A stretch of 64,000 nt of DNA, taken from assembly GCF_044324875.1 (NCBI RefSeq), contig NZ_CP172185.1; one strand, 5' to 3'. This DNA is from Escherichia coli. GTDB lineage: Bacteria; Pseudomonadota; Gammaproteobacteria; Enterobacterales; Enterobacteriaceae. The stretch's first letter is position 1, and every line of letters begins with the position of its first letter. Shown here piece by piece: positions 46,735-52,700 of the stretch. A program made the position numbers.

Positions 46735-49700
46735 TTATGTGAACTGAACTGTGTTTTGTTAGCGGGGGATGTTTATTGATGATTCGGGAGTGTTTAAGAC
46801 CTGATGGCGTTATGCTCCCAAGTTTATTTTATATAAAGATCCAAAAGCAAAAACCCGCCTTGTGGGCGGGTTCTTAAGAATTAGTGGTGCCGGACTCGGA
46901 ATCGAATATTTCATTTATCATATTGATATTTGTGTGATTTATTTGGTTTGATTAAAAATGTACCCTCATTTGTACCCGTAGTCCCTTTTGATATTGAAAG
47001 GGAATCACACTCGGGATCAGGCTGAGAGCACAGAAAGAAAGTGCTTGGCTATTATATCGTTAATTCTGTCAATCAGTTCCAGCCTTTTGAAAGTGATGTG
47101 TGCAGATCCCTTCTTAAAATATTTAATGATGAACATCTCGTCTTCATAGCGCTCTTTACCCTGAACGGACTGGATGTGACCATCCAGACGAATAGTGATG
47201 TTTTCCCGGTTGTCGGGGATCGGTTTGCCGCTGAGCAGATGCAACATTCTTTCCAGGTCAGCCAGGCGATCTGCCTGCATTCCACTGATAAGATGAAATC
47301 CCCACCGGTCCCATCTCACCAGATTGTTGATAATGATTTTACTTCCAAATTTACAGGGAGAGTTGGTTTTATAATTCCAGCTCAGTTCCCTGAAGACGTT
47401 AATCACTCCCCGCTTAAACACCTCATCCTTGTTCTGGTGCACTTGTTCAAATGTGCTCAGAATGTTCGCTTCACTGATTTCCGGAAAATTATCATATTCC
47501 AGTGACCTGTACCATGTATCACGTGCCTGTGCATCCATTAAGGAAAGCATCCCGGAACGCTGCATCAGGTTACGCCAGATTTCGCGGTCAAGATTCCGGG
47601 TAATGGCTTTCATTGCTGTTTCTGGTTTCTCCATCAGCCAGCAGCCACAGCGAAAATTCTGTTTCATCGCCCAGTCCGGGGCGGCTTTACCGCCAATACT
47701 TTCCGTCAGTGCTGAGATTTCTGTCAGTTGCCGGATAAGCGTGTCGATTTGCAGCAGTGTACTCTTTCGTACAGCCAGGATGTGTCTGATACTTGTGGAA
47801 CAGATAACGGCTGTATGTCCGTTGACCGCGTTCGGGTGGGGGATTGTGATATATGACATTATGGGGTTTCCTTTCTGTTTATAAACGAAAACGCCAGCTC
47901 TGTTCAGGCTGGCGTCAGTGGAATGAAGTATGGTGAGTGAGACTCACGCGCTCAGGTGAATGAGTTGCAGGTGACGCAGGGTACGGACATCCTCCTTGGC
48001 CTGTTCGATACAGGGCAACAATGCTGCCGAATCCGTTTTATCCTCATTGTTGTCAAAGATAATCCCCGATTCGCAGTCGATATTGTCCTGCAGCCACGCA
48101 ATGTCGTAAACGGTGGTGGAGTGCAGGTTGACTGCTGGTCAGGGTCGTCCACCACGCGGAGTGAATAACCGTATTCAGCGACCTTGTTAATCAGTTCAGT
48201 GAGCTCAACACCATCAATGTCAACGACAATTCGCCCTATATTCAGTGCCTGTACGTTAACGCTGTCTGCTTCCAATGTCAGGGCCAGTTTCATCATTTCG
48301 CCTCCGGATACTTACCCAGGGTAATGTTATTTACCGTTCTGTAATTGTCGCGGGTCATCAGGCCGGTCGCCCTGCGAGCCCGGAGGATATCGATGCTGTT
48401 TATTAACTGAGAGCGGGTACAGGTGCTGAATCCCGGCTGGTCGGTACGCACCAGCGCGTATTTTTCCACGAGAAAGTTCACCGCATCACACAGTGAAATG
48501 CCAGCCTCAATATGCTGCTCAATCACACGTTCATCGGCAAACGGTGTGTCATGCAGTGTGAGGCCGTAATGCTGGTCCAGCAGCCGGGTCAGCAGTATCT
48601 GCCAGATTTCAAGCGGAGACGGGCGTGAACTGGCCGCTTGCTTGGGTAATACAGGTAATGTTTTCATTTTAAGTTCTCAGTAATGGGGGAGATAAAGGTG
48701 AGATATTCGGGATTATGCTGTTGTTGCGGGAACTGCTGGTGTCGGATAAACAGCCATATAAACGTAGCCACAACTGCCGAGGGTGTCGGCTTCGCAGGTC
48801 AGCCCTTTTGCATACAGCGTGACGGTATGCTGATGACGGGGACTGAGTTCACCGCTGGTGAGCATTAATTCCAGTTGTTTCATCAGCAGCGGAAAGGCCT
48901 GGTCCGGATGGTATGCATCTGCGTCGCTGAAGCGGCCTCTGATACCGGCGCGGTCGGCAAGGTAATGCAACCGGTTACCCTCCTGCACCAGACAGGCCCC
49001 GAAACAGGGCGTCACGGTGCAGGGTAGTCCCCACCAGGGGCGGTCGTGATTGTTGTCGGGGAGTGTGTCTGACACGATAAAGTCCTCACAGAAAATCGGT
49101 TAAGAATGGTCCGGTAGTGGCGATAATTCTGCTCATCAGAATGCCCTGACTCAGTTCAGGGTGACACTCATCAGGCGGACATACGGGCCAAAACTGTCCT
49201 TACGGCGTTCTGCAAATACAGCCAGCACACCGGGAATATCCTGTACTTCACGACCGGTATACGTCTCAGCACTGCCGTGCCAGCGGTATTTACCGGTACA
49301 GAACGGAAAAAGACGGGATGTCGGATGTTGTTGGTGAATACGCATGGCTTCACCACGGGTGATAATTTTCATAATGGGATACCTCTGAAGACAGAAGATA
49401 AAAGTGAAAACAGGTGTGATGTGGTTGTGACGGGTTAAAGCAGACCATGTTCGGCAAAGGAGAAAACCTGGCTGCCACCGACTATCAGATGGTCCGGCAC
49501 CCGGATATCCACCAGGCCCAGTGCCTGTACCAGACGTTCCGTGATAAGGCGGTCTGCCTTGCTGGGTGTGACTTCACCGGACGGGTGATTGTGCGCCAGC
49601 ACCACGGCAGCGGCATTGTGGTACAGGGCGCGTTTAATCACTTCCCGGGGATGGACTTCCGTGCGGTTGATGGTGCCGGTGAAGAGGGTTTCACCGGCAA

Positions 49701-52700
49701 TCAGCTGATTCTGGTTGTTCAGATACAGCACCCGGAATTCTTCACGCTCCAGTCCCGCCATGTTCAGAATCAGCCATTCCCGTGCCGCATGCGTGGAGGT
49801 GAAGGCCACGCCGGGTTCATGAAGATGGCGGTCCAGGGCTTTCAGGGCCCGCTGAATGAGGCTGCGCTCTCTGGTTGTCATTTCTCCGGGCAGAAAGGAA
49901 ATCTGTTGCATTGTTCCGGCCCCCTTTCAGTCAATGATGCGCATAATGGCGCTGCATTCCGGATGCTGCAGGGCGTAATCCCGCAGACGGTAATAATGAA
50001 CCGTCATGGCATAACACTCCGTACGGCAGGCGTGATGACTGTACGTCATCAGACAGGCAGCAATGCCGGCGGCTTCCGGGCTCATTTCAGCGCGGTTACC
50101 GTTCATGGCATTGAACAGTACCCATGTTTCGTCATCATCATCATCCGGTTCGGGGGCCATAAATGCCCCGCCGTTGTTCAGGGTGTACAGATTCCAGATA
50201 CCACCGCAGTAGTCTTCGCACAGACGGTCCATCCAGCCGAAGACACTGGGCTCCAGGGTCACCCACTGTGGAATGAGGCCAAAATGCTGCGGCCAGAAGC
50301 TGATGCGCTGTTCATCAGGGACGAGGCTGGCAACCAACTGAGGCGGATTATTCTCTGGTGTTGTAGCTGAATAAATTGTGGGGGTATTCTGAGAAACGGT
50401 TTTCATGAGATAACGCCTTAAATAACAAATAAATGTGTGTTTTTCAGGAACGAAAGCTGAATGATTCCCTCACTCAGGGAAACGGCATCAGCGCATGCTC
50501 TCCAGCAGCGTTTCTGCCATCACCCACAATGCGCGGTTGAGTTTTATATCGGTATCAATGCTGTGAATGGCCCGGGTATGGATACGTTTTCCTTTTGCAC
50601 TGCGACCGGAAATCCCGCCTTTCAGCATATTCTCCTGGATGGTCTGATAAGCACTCCACAGGTCCTTACCGTAATCCTCCCGGCGTCGTGGTGTCAGAAT
50701 GTCGGCGGTGGTGACGGGCTGATGTTCGTCACCATAACGGTAAGTCAGTGCCGCCTGTGCCAGCGCCTGGCGTGCCGGTGGCGGCAGGACCAGCGACTGC
50801 ATGGCATCACGCTTCTCCTCTATCCGGTCAAACACGCCCACCACCTCGTAAGCCCCTTCAATGACTCTGTCCACCACATTTCCCCGGTGCGGAACACGCA
50901 CTTCCCCCCGAGACTGACCGCAGACGCATCCGTTCTGGCAGACGAACCTGAAGTAACCCGGCAGCATCTGGTAGCTGGAGGTACCGTCATGAGAGTTGAG
51001 CAGAATAATTTCAGGGACATGTTGTCCGTTTATCTCCCCGTCACGGCGCAGACGCAGCATGTGTTTGGTATACCCCCGGCGACCCGGGTCACGTACGCGG
51101 GTCTGGCAGGCGAAGAATGGCTGAAAGCCTTCCCGCTGCAGGCTTTCCAGCACGGTGATGGTGGGGATGTATGTATAGTTCCGGCTCCGGGAGGTGTGTT
51201 TATCTTCCCCGAAAATCCCGGGCACATGGTGCATCAGCTCTTCACGGGTCAGCGGACGGTCACGGCGTATCTGGTTCGCATAACCAAAACGACTGGCTAA
51301 TCGCATACTTTGCTCCTTATCAGTGGTTAAGACTGAATGACGTAATCAATGAAAAAGCCGCGTCTCACGGAGAAGACGCGGCCTGATGGATGAAATGAAT
51401 GAGGGTTTACCGAAGCCCTTCAGCATTGTGGTGACGCAACCGGAAATGCGTTTCCTGGTTATCGCCGGGGCCGGTCAAAAAGCGGGGACATTCAGAACAG
51501 GCGATCCCACAGTGTGATCAGCAGGCGGATAATGCGATCACGGGCTTTGCGCAGAAGCTGCAGCATCCAGGCCGGAAAGCTGAACCGGGCAATGGCAGCG
51601 TCAAAACTCTGGCCGATGGCGTCACCAAAAGCCTGCTGTGCGTGTTGCTGATCCTGCGCAGTGCGCTTTTCATTCCGGATATGCGAATAAACCGCGCTGG
51701 TTGCCTGTGGTGGCAGGGCGTGGATCATCAGAGACACAAATGCCGGAAGATTCCAGCCGGCAGGAGCGGCTATGGGGAGTACCGGAAATGATGAAGGGAA
51801 CAGGGTTGCCACCCGGGCTGTCACCGTCGCCAGTGAGAGTTCCTGCTGACGGGATGGCGTGCTGCTCTGGTTGTTCCATTCTTCAGCCGGGTGGATGCGA
51901 TCGGCATGGCTGAGAACAAACAGAAAACGCGAGGGATCGGCACCTTCATTCAGTAAAAACTGATGCATGGCGATGTCGGCAGCATACGCACGTTCATCAG
52001 CCCGCAGGATCCAGATAATCAGATCCAGTTCGGGCAGTAACTGACTGTAAAGTGCCCGGTATTCCTGATCATGCTGTGGTGTTTCGCCAGTGCCGGGCAG
52101 ATCGACCAGCGTCATTCTTCGTTCACCGGGCTGAAAGGTAAGACGATGAGCCTGACGGGTGCAGCCGTTCAGCGGATGCGTGGCGCAGACACGGGACTGA
52201 AAAATGGCATTGCACAGGCTGCTTTTTCCGGCACCGGATTTACCCATAATGCCAATAACGGGTTCGTACTGAATGACGCTGCGAAGATGTTCAAGGATTT
52301 TCTGGCGAATTTCTTCAGGAAGAAAGGTCAGATGTGACTTTACGTGTGCGGAGAGGGAAGAATGGCTGAATGACATACCGTTATCCTGTTGATTTCACTG
52401 AACCGGATCACATTAATCCGGCCTCTCAGTCAGGTAATATGGACGTGAAAATTTTTCCATTGACGGGAAGAAGAGTATGGCTAAAAACAAAGGTATCTGT
52501 CGGAATAAAAAATGCAGCAATCCTGTTTCAGAATTTGATGAGGCAAATGCCCTGAGGTTATGTGATGATCATTATCAGTTATGGAAACGAAATAAAGAGA
52601 ACCGTCGGGTCAGGAATATTTGTCGTATAATCAGTAAATATGACAAAAGTCTGGACCGGGAGATATTTGACAGAGTAATAGATGCTGCAAGAAATCAAAC

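What the first reader, a model, noticed from the sequence alone, without database searches (positions are those of the whole stretch)
47017..52376. Island remnant with an intact-looking CbtA/CbeA type IV toxin-antitoxin and antirestriction gene
The module order (hypothetical, YeeW-like, CbtA, CbeA, YeeT, RadC-like, KlcA, YafZ, GTPase) matches the conserved distal module of CP4-type cryptic prophages. The toxin and antitoxin ORFs appear full-length, whereas the YeeW-like ORF looks degraded.
Basis: partly seen in the sequence, partly recalled or inferred. Interest (0 to 1): 0.35.

Follow-up and report, generated by a model that had tools for sequence, protein, structure and literature searches.

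The report
Known toxin-antitoxin tail of pheV island
This stretch is the well-known conserved end module of an E. coli genomic island inserted at the pheV tRNA gene, with an intact CbtA/CbeA toxin-antitoxin pair and an ArdB anti-restriction gene; it is ordinary and found in about nine of ten E. coli genomes.

Summary
Window 47017-52376 (minus strand) holds, in transcription order: GTPase, DUF932 (YafZ/YfjQ-like), ArdB/KlcA anti-restriction protein, RadC-like JAB protein, DUF987 (YeeT), CbeA antitoxin, CbtA toxin, a truncated DUF5983 (YeeW-like) ORF and DUF4942. CbtA is 96% identical to K-12 CbtA over all 124 residues without gaps. It keeps F65 and R15, the residues needed for FtsZ and MreB binding. 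CbeA is collinear with K-12 CbeA (90%), with no frameshift. The YeeW-like ORF is degraded: a 348-bp deletion removes the DUF5983 C-terminal domain and the start of the next gene (DUF957). New here: 110 bp beyond DUF4942 lies a 22-nt copy of the pheV tRNA 3' end followed by the pheV terminator. So the module is the far end of a pheV-integrated island that runs to the window's right edge and beyond. Whether that island is a "remnant" cannot be seen from the window. The module is a recombination mosaic. The exact toxin and antitoxin proteins occur on hundreds of public contigs. One caveat: CbeA carries R28C and L57P at strongly conserved positions. Verdict: already known, low interest.

The parts
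51492..52376 (-). GTPase family protein (YeeP/YfjP/YkfA-like, 294 aa). First gene of the module, followed by a terminator-like hairpin at 51384-51355.
   Evidence: Pfam MMR_HSR1 2e-14. Only 35% identical to K-12 YfjP/YkfA. DNA identical to the F1022 gene annotated WP_000010380.1, and no coding differences from the MS119-7 copy. Hairpin.
50488..51306 (-). DUF932 protein (YafZ/YfjQ-like, 272 aa)
   Evidence: Pfam DUF932 5e-52 over the full profile. 75% identical to K-12 YafZ/YfjQ over 271 aa.
49927..50406 (-). ArdB/KlcA-family anti-restriction protein (159 aa). Probable first gene of a five- to six-gene operon.
   Evidence: Pfam Antirestrict 2e-37. Full-length match to PDB 2WJ9, ArdB of E. coli CFT073 (E 8e-101), and to KlcA 2KMG (5e-21). 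ArdB CFT073 blocks type I restriction in vivo (PMC2836571). 68-70% identical to K-12 YfjX/YafX.
49435..49911 (-). RadC-like JAB-domain protein (158 aa), with the HNHPSG metalloprotease motif present
   Evidence: Pfam RadC 1e-44 and TIGR00608 above its cut-off. 97% identical to K-12 YeeS and 78% to LfgB/YfjY. LfgB is reported as a protease (PMC10846083).
49151..49372 (-). DUF987 protein (YeeT, 73 aa)
   Evidence: Pfam DUF987 4e-39. 98.6% identical to K-12 YeeT.
48713..49075 (-). CbeA (YeeU) type IV antitoxin, 120 aa, GTG start preceded by GAGGA. Carries R28C and L57P.
   Evidence: Pfam CbeA_antitoxin 5e-52. 90% identical to K-12 CbeA with no frameshift. Matches solved YeeU structures 2INW and 2H28. 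Column conservation. The exact protein occurs on 219 public contigs. Start region read.
48293..48667 (-). CbtA (YeeV) type IV toxin, 124 aa, intact
   Evidence: Pfam CbtA_toxin 2e-57 over profile 1-112 of 112. 96% identical to K-12 CbtA over 124 of 124 aa without gaps. All 28 invariant family columns are kept, including F65, and R15 is present. The exact protein occurs on 819 public contigs.
47952..48296 (-). Truncated DUF5983 (YeeW-like) ORF, 114 aa. Only residues 5-60 match DUF5983_N; the rest reads out of frame through the DUF957 remnant. Its start overlaps the cbtA stop by 4 nt.
   Evidence: Pfam DUF5983_N only, whereas the intact MS119-7 protein (162 aa) has both N and C domains. A 348-bp deletion with junction near 48102/48103 is seen and in the sequence.
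47944..48102 (-). DUF957 gene remnant. It lacks its first ~12 codons and its ATG; PGAP rescues it in F1022 with a CTG start at 48126.
   Evidence: Alignment to the intact MS119-7 gene. Translation. PGAP annotation. The family is not in the Pfam copy used here.
47883..47916 (-). GC-rich hairpin plus T-run (terminator-like) between the DUF957 remnant and DUF4942
   Evidence: Conserved in all five aligned loci. Located.
47017..47859 (-). DUF4942 protein (280 aa), the last gene of the island
46885..46906 (-). 22-nt copy of the 3' end of tRNA-Phe (pheV/pheU) with one G missing. This is the att repeat marking the island end, and it is followed by the native pheV terminator (46876-46848).
   Evidence: Pattern match. 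Base-by-base comparison with the intact pheV of strain O17_K12a. Terminator. Homology with F1022 (island at pheU) and with O17_K12a (empty site) breaks exactly here.

Best explanation
This is the conserved integrase-distal accessory module of a P4/CP4-like genomic island integrated at pheV. It contains a functional-looking type IV toxin-antitoxin pair.

Shown here: the island's end is marked by a 22-nt pheV 3'-end repeat at 46885-46906. The ten co-directional genes or gene remnants read towards that end. ardB, radC, DUF987, cbeA, cbtA and the DUF5983 remnant are separated by -4 to 75 nt, like the yfjXY-ypjJ-yfjZ-ypjF operon of CP4-57.

Inferred from close homologues that were tested experimentally:
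- CbtA binds the H6/H7 loop of FtsZ (through F65) and the flat face of MreB (through R15). This blocks division and elongation and gives lemon-shaped cells.
- CbeA neutralises CbtA not by binding it but by bundling and stabilising FtsZ and MreB filaments (type IV mechanism).
- ArdB alleviates type I restriction in vivo.
- The RadC-like JAB protein is a metalloprotease.

Inferred role of the module: it helps the island establish in a new host (anti-restriction) and stay there (toxin-antitoxin addiction).

This copy is a mosaic. The GTPase-to-RadC part is nearly identical to that of strain MS119-7, while the DUF987-to-DUF4942 part is diverged. It has lost the DUF5983 C-terminal domain and the DUF957 start to one 348-bp deletion.
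For: - Family assignments over full profiles.
- Collinearity with CP4-6, CP4-57 and CP4-44, with 96% (CbtA), 90% (CbeA), 99% (YeeT) and 97% (YeeS) identity to K-12 CP4-44 proteins.
- No gaps, frameshifts or stops in the toxin or antitoxin.
- All invariant CbtA columns, plus F65 and R15, are kept. The roles of these residues are in PMC5624674.
- dN/dS is 0.14-0.28 for cbtA and cbeA against two other alleles.
- The exact CbtA and CbeA proteins are on 819 and 219 public contigs.
- ArdB matches the tested CFT073 protein 2WJ9 at 8e-101.
- The tRNA-Phe repeat and the empty-site comparison define the island end.
- The same-context island in Ch1 has pheV and a tyrosine integrase at the far end.
- The same module has been reported in pheU/pheV/selC islands (PMC6174562) and in K-12 (PMC5371832).
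- Operon precedent in CP4-57 (PMC10846083); gene spacing.
- Mosaic structure: dS is 0-0.03 for GTPase to RadC and 0.26-0.57 for DUF987 to DUF4942.
Against: - No expression or toxicity data exist for this copy.
- CbeA has R28C (R in 76 of 79 relatives) and L57P (L in 73 of 79). CbtA has V19L (0 of 58) and N39H (2 of 58). Activity could therefore be altered.
- No sigma-70-like promoter was picked up upstream of ardB by the simple scan.
- The integrase and the intact pheV lie outside the window, so island mobility cannot be judged.
- The roles of GTPase, DUF932, DUF987, DUF5983, DUF957 and DUF4942 are unknown. The 'establishment and stabilisation' role of the whole module is inference.
Confidence: 0.9

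Rival explanations
1. The reading frames are open but the pair is functionally decayed. Missense changes (CbeA R28C and L57P; CbtA V19L and N39H) have inactivated one or both partners, so this is a silent relic rather than a working toxin-antitoxin system.
For: Four substitutions lie at columns conserved in 90-100% of relatives. Neighbouring genes are visibly decaying: the DUF5983/DUF957 deletion and a ProQ/FinO gene that is truncated here (100 aa) and frameshifted in relatives. In PK8275 the cbtA homologue at the same site is frameshifted.
Against: dN/dS is 0.14-0.28. C28 and P57 each recur in other cluster representatives with different backgrounds, so they look like tolerated polymorphisms. 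The exact proteins occur on 219 and 819 contigs. F65, R15 and all invariant toxin columns are kept.
Confidence: 0.12
2. The stretch is a stranded fragment of a former element (a true remnant), left next to the capsule locus after the rest of the island was lost. It is no longer part of a contiguous island.
For: There is no tRNA or integrase gene in the window. An IS110 fragment lies nearby at 46504-46659. DUF905 and one more gene present in Ch1 between DUF932 and the GTPase are absent here.
Against: Island-type genes continue without a break to the window edge: the 407-aa orphan, YagK/YfjJ, AlpA, ProQ/FinO, and the LacI-PTS-transketolase cargo. They are collinear with Ch1, whose island reaches pheV and an integrase. 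The IS110 fragment lies outside the island and is also present at the empty site.
Confidence: 0.15
3. It is the end of a cryptic prophage in the strict sense, that is, a degraded P4-like satellite phage, rather than a non-phage integrative island.
For: The K-12 counterparts are annotated as cryptic prophages CP4-6, CP4-44 and CP4-57. AlpA and YagK/YfjJ (inovirus Gp2-like) genes are nearby.
Against: No capsid, tail, terminase or P4 alpha primase genes are in the 17 kb visible here. The cargo is metabolic (PTS, transketolase). This is largely a matter of naming.
Confidence: 0.1

Closest known systems
CbtA/CbeA (YeeV/YeeU) type IV toxin-antitoxin system of E. coli K-12 cryptic prophage CP4-44
   Same: Same Pfam families, same gene order (yeeS-yeeT-cbeA-cbtA-yeeW) and same strand arrangement. 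Identities are 96% (toxin), 90% (antitoxin), 99% (YeeT) and 97% (YeeS). F65 and R15 are kept, and yeeW is truncated in both.
   Different: - The CbeA N-terminal tail is 5 residues shorter and the C-terminal tail 3 longer.
- The cbeA-cbtA spacer is 45 nt instead of 88.
- CbeA carries R28C and L57P.
- The DUF5983/DUF957 deletion has different breakpoints.
- This copy has ardB, DUF932, an intact GTPase and DUF4942, which CP4-44 lacks or has as pseudogenes, and it lacks flu and yeeR.
Distal modules of K-12 CP4-57 (yfjP-yfjQ...lfgA/yfjX-lfgB/yfjY-ypjJ-yfjZ-ypjF) and CP4-6 (ykfA-yafZ...yafX-ykfG-ykfH-yafW-ykfI)
   Same: Same order: GTPase, DUF932, ArdB, RadC, DUF987, antitoxin, toxin, ending at the island boundary opposite the integrase.
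   Different: Identities are lower: toxin 59-64%, antitoxin 64-66%, ArdB 68-70%, DUF932 75%, GTPase 35%. The K-12 copies carry 5-8 extra genes between DUF932 and ardB and have no DUF5983/DUF957/DUF4942 tail.
pheU/pheV/selC island tails of pathogenic E. coli (e.g. PAI II CFT073 with ArdB ORF14; STEC islands described in PMC6174562)
   Different: Only allele-level differences and the 348-bp deletion. F1022 carries the same tail (99.8%) at pheU next to cadC instead of at pheV.

Membership tests
CbtA/CbeA type IV toxin-antitoxin system | Toxin is a full-length member of CbtA_toxin (PF06755) | tested here: met
   E 2e-57, profile 1-112 of 112. 124 of 124 aa align without gaps to K-12 CbtA at 96%.
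CbtA/CbeA type IV toxin-antitoxin system | Antitoxin of CbeA_antitoxin (PF06154) lies directly upstream on the same strand | tested here: met
   E 5e-52, profile 1-100 of 101. A 45-nt spacer separates it from cbtA. Matches YeeU structures 2INW and 2H28.
CbtA/CbeA type IV toxin-antitoxin system | Toxin residues needed for target binding are present (F65 for FtsZ, R15 for MreB) | tested here: met
   Both are present in the window protein. Their roles come from PMC5624674.
CbtA/CbeA type IV toxin-antitoxin system | Toxin arrests growth, and the antitoxin rescues without binding the toxin (by bundling FtsZ/MreB) | not testable with these tools
   Needs expression, microscopy and interaction assays. 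CbeA R28C and L57P leave this open.
ArdB/KlcA anti-restriction proteins | Antirestrict domain (PF03230) and close similarity to a protein with demonstrated activity | tested here: met
   E 2e-37. Full-length match to ArdB CFT073, 2WJ9, at 8e-101. Its activity in vivo is reported in PMC2836571.
ArdB/KlcA anti-restriction proteins | Alleviation of type I restriction in vivo by this copy | not testable with these tools
   Needs a phage plating assay on EcoKI-type hosts.
CP4/P4-like tRNA-integrated island, integrase-distal module | Gene order GTPase, DUF932, ArdB, RadC, DUF987, antitoxin, toxin | tested here: met
   Collinear with CP4-6 and CP4-57 and partly with CP4-44.
CP4/P4-like tRNA-integrated island, integrase-distal module | Module abuts the island boundary, marked by a direct repeat of the tRNA 3' end | tested here: met
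   A 22-nt pheV 3'-end copy lies at 46885-46906, 110 bp from the DUF4942 stop codon. The empty site is seen in O17_K12a.
CP4/P4-like tRNA-integrated island, integrase-distal module | P4-type tyrosine integrase next to the intact tRNA at the other end | not testable with these tools
   It lies outside the window (no tRNA found). It is present in the same-context relative Ch1.
[not shown]
   [not shown]
Known anti-phage defence systems (PADLOC) | Any module protein matches a defence-system model | tested here: not met
   The only hit is a weak partial one, of the GTPase to LeoBC (4e-7, no stretch passing on its own).

The most novel reading that the evidence does not exclude
The CbeA allele here (R28C plus L57P at positions conserved in more than 92% of relatives) may be a weakened antitoxin. 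This island's intact CbtA would then be held in check partly in trans by CbeA paralogues on the other islands of the same genome (median three copies per genome), making the islands mutually dependent. A related possibility is that DUF5983 and DUF957, which follow cbtA in 69% of genomes and have been deleted independently at least three times, are accessory parts of the toxin-antitoxin unit.
Probability: 0.07. Interest if true: 0.3.

Novelty: already known. Interest (0 to 1): 0.08.

Why it matters
It matters little beyond annotation. The module is one of the most common accessory cassettes in E. coli, and its key parts (CbtA/CbeA, ArdB, the RadC-like protease) have been studied in close homologues. 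This analysis adds four things:
- a precise island boundary, the pheV repeat at 46885-46906;
- the exact nature of the YeeW-like decay, one 348-bp deletion that also beheads DUF957;
- evidence that the module is a recombination mosaic that also occurs at pheU;
- a flag on two unusual antitoxin substitutions.

Most genes of the cassette (GTPase, DUF932, DUF987, DUF5983, DUF957, DUF4942) still have no known function. That is a general open question, not something special to this locus.

Tried and rejected
- Rfam scan of 45500-56500 at E <= 0.1: no RNA family, including IsrC, which sits in the K-12 CP4-44 module.
- tRNA scan of the whole window: none, so the intact pheV is outside it.
- PADLOC: no defence-system membership.
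- NCBIfam: only RadC passes a cut-off.
- MqsA-type palindrome (ACCT N2-4 AGGT), which regulates the homologous CP4-57 operon: none in or near the module; one chance-level hit at 17029.
- Long antisense ORFs (307, 279, 154 and 151 aa) and the 43-aa plus-strand ORF between DUF932 and the GTPase: no family hits; treated as spurious.
- Simple promoter scan: nothing above shuffle expectation.
- CbtA in the PDB: no solved relative.
- Pfam check of DUF957: the family is absent from this Pfam copy even for the intact gene, so the label rests on PGAP annotation and alignment.
- Second copies of the toxin or antitoxin in the window: none.
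Full report
**Observation.** Each matches its Pfam family over essentially the whole profile:

| Coordinates | Family | E-value |
|---|---|---|
| 47017-47859 | DUF4942 | 7e-66 |
| 47952-48296 | DUF5983_N | 4e-29 |
| 48293-48667 | CbtA_toxin | 2e-57 |
| 48713-49075 | CbeA_antitoxin | 5e-52 |
| 49151-49372 | DUF987 | 4e-39 |
| 49435-49911 | RadC | 1e-44 |
| 49927-50406 | Antirestrict | 2e-37 |
| 50488-51306 | DUF932 | 5e-52 |
| 51492-52376 | small GTPase | 2e-14 |

The long plus-strand ORFs that overlap these genes have no family hits and are treated as spurious. The stretch has megablast matches in 5012 of 5426 complete E. coli genomes, at a median of three places per genome. 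It is real and extremely common.

**Comparison with K-12.** I fetched the annotated CP4-44, CP4-57 and CP4-6 regions of MG1655 and compared proteins.
- The toxin is 96% identical to CbtA over 124 of 124 residues, without a gap.
- The antitoxin is 90% identical to CbeA over 112 collinear residues. Only the variable N- and C-terminal tails differ in length.
- DUF987 is 99% identical to YeeT, and RadC is 97% identical to YeeS.
- ArdB and DUF932 are absent from CP4-44. They are 68-75% identical to the CP4-6 and CP4-57 copies.
- The GTPase is only 35% identical to YfjP/YkfA.

The order GTPase, DUF932, ArdB, RadC, DUF987, antitoxin, toxin is that of CP4-6 and CP4-57. This shared arrangement near the attachment sites of the three K-12 elements is already described (PMC5371832). 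The same gene set is reported for pheU, pheV and selC islands of pathogenic strains (PMC6174562).

**Are the toxin and antitoxin intact?** No frameshift or stop was found.
- Against 58 full-length relatives, the toxin keeps all 28 invariant columns. It differs from the majority at conserved positions only by V19L and N39H.
- F65 and R15 are both present. F65S abolishes FtsZ binding and R15C weakens MreB binding, and the double mutant is non-toxic (PMC5624674).
- The antitoxin matches the solved YeeU structures 2INW and 2H28. It has a GTG start seven bases after GAGGA, like K-12 cbeA.
- The antitoxin carries R28C (R in 76 of 79 relatives) and L57P (L in 73 of 79).
- Each of these variants also occurs in other cluster representatives with different backgrounds.
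- The exact antitoxin is on 219 public contigs and the exact toxin on 819.
- dN/dS against two other alleles is 0.14-0.28.

I therefore read the two substitutions as tolerated polymorphisms. I keep them as the one caveat to 'intact-looking'. Among complete genomes this precise allele pair is rare: four genomes at 99% identity or more over the whole pair.

**The YeeW-like ORF.** The intact arrangement, seen in strain MS119-7, is cbtA, DUF5983 (162 aa, with N and C domains), DUF957 (65 aa), DUF4942. At least one full-length DUF5983-DUF957 unit is present in 3729 of 5426 genomes.
- Alignment shows a single 348-bp deletion in the window, shared with F1022 and Ch1. It runs from about DUF5983 codon 65 to about DUF957 codon 13, with the junction near 48102/48103.
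- The 114-aa ORF is therefore DUF5983_N fused out of frame to DUF957 sequence.
- The DUF957 remnant has lost its ATG. PGAP keeps it in F1022 only through a CTG start.
- PK8275 and K-12 CP4-44 carry different deletions in the same two genes. This pair therefore decays repeatedly.

**Island boundary (new).**
- 110 bp beyond the DUF4942 stop codon lies TTCGATTCCGAGTCCGGCACCA at 46885-46906 on the minus strand.
- It is the 3' end of tRNA-Phe with one G missing, followed by the unchanged pheV terminator.
- Strain O17_K12a shares the adjacent K12-type kps capsule cluster at 99.7% identity. It has the empty site: kpsF, IS110 fragment, intact pheV, yqgA. Its homology to the window stops exactly at 46906.
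- The best match to the module, F1022 (99.8%, nine SNPs), is identical from 46885 to 53138 but sits next to cadC, the usual neighbourhood of pheU.
- Strain Ch1 has the same kpsF context and an island of about 61 kb that ends in pheV and a tyrosine integrase.
- In the window, island-type genes continue to position 64000: a 407-aa orphan, YagK/YfjJ, AlpA, a ProQ/FinO fragment, and a LacI-PTS-transketolase cargo.

So the module is the att-repeat end of a larger pheV island. 'Remnant' is not demonstrated.

**Mosaic structure.** Against MS119-7, synonymous divergence is 0-0.03 for GTPase, DUF932, ArdB and RadC. It jumps to 0.26-0.57 for DUF987, cbeA, cbtA and DUF4942. This places a recombination breakpoint between radC and DUF987. 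It also explains why only one complete genome matches the whole 5.36 kb at 99% or more. Ch1 has two extra genes (DUF905 and a hypothetical) between DUF932 and the GTPase that are absent here.

**Mechanism.** What is shown here is gene content, order, integrity and position.

What is inferred from tested close homologues:
- CbtA inhibits FtsZ and MreB independently (PMC5624674).
- CbeA acts as a type IV antitoxin on the targets rather than on the toxin. This rests on established knowledge of YeeU/CbeA, from Masuda et al. 2012, which I did not re-read here.
- ArdB relieves type I restriction in vivo. The window protein is a full-length match to the CFT073 ArdB of PDB 2WJ9 at 8e-101.
- The RadC-like JAB protein is a protease, by analogy with LfgB/YfjY of CP4-57. 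The CP4-57 genes yfjXY-ypjJ-yfjZ-ypjF form one operon (PMC10846083).
- Spacings of -4 to 75 nt from ardB to the DUF5983 remnant fit the same operon layout. Hairpins after the GTPase gene and after the DUF957 remnant fit separate transcription units on either side.

That the cassette serves island establishment and retention is inference.

**Negative results.**
- No Rfam family in 45500-56500.
- No tRNA in the window.
- No PADLOC membership.
- No MqsA palindrome near the module.

**Verdict.** The feature is a known, very common module. Its only individual traits are a shared 348-bp deletion, mosaic ancestry and two unusual but recurrent antitoxin substitutions. Interest is low.

Noticed in passing
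[not shown]
   Followed up: partly
window about 30000-45730: Group 2 capsule (kps) cluster, with a low-GC serotype-specific middle region (30-38 kb, GC 0.30-0.36). It is 99.7% identical to a strain named O17_K12a, so it is probably a K12-type capsule. It is flanked on the left by the gsp/sslE type II secretion genes.
   Followed up: partly
window 46504-46659 (-): IS110-family transposase fragment between kpsF and the pheV repeat. It is also present at the empty pheV site of O17_K12a, so it lies outside the island and predates or is independent of it.
   Followed up: yes
window 53700-54930: About 1.2 kb of low-GC DNA (0.33-0.37) with strongly negative AT skew. It has no ORF of 70 aa or more, no Rfam hit and no annotation in relatives. 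It may be a decayed gene or a regulatory or structural region.
   Followed up: no
window 58093-58395 (-): ProQ/FinO-family ORF of only 100 aa, annotated as a frameshifted pseudogene in F1022 and Ch1. This is another sign of decay inside the island.
   Followed up: partly
window 49372-49435 (between radC and DUF987): Synonymous divergence from strain MS119-7 jumps from about 0.03 to 0.26-0.57 across this point, indicating a recombination junction inside the module.
   Followed up: partly
L001 (F1022) 11860-17360 versus window 46885-52376: The same island tail (99.8% identical) sits next to cadC, the usual neighbourhood of pheU, in F1022 but at pheV here. This fits exchange of this island type between the pheV and pheU sites, though no tRNA gene falls in the F1022 stretch shown.
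   Followed up: partly
L003 (K-12 CP4-44) 13944-14258; L007 (PK8275) 4187-4349: Independent deletions with different breakpoints in the same DUF5983-DUF957 gene pair in K-12 and PK8275. In PK8275 the cbtA homologue and DUF4942 are also frameshifted, and an extra 'antitoxin of toxin-antitoxin stability system' pseudogene lies between DUF987 and the antitoxin.
   Followed up: partly
window 55284-57249 (+): YagK/YfjJ-family (inovirus Gp2-like replication-associated) protein and an AlpA-type regulator. These are the usual P4-like island regulatory genes, here in the middle of the visible island.
   Followed up: partly
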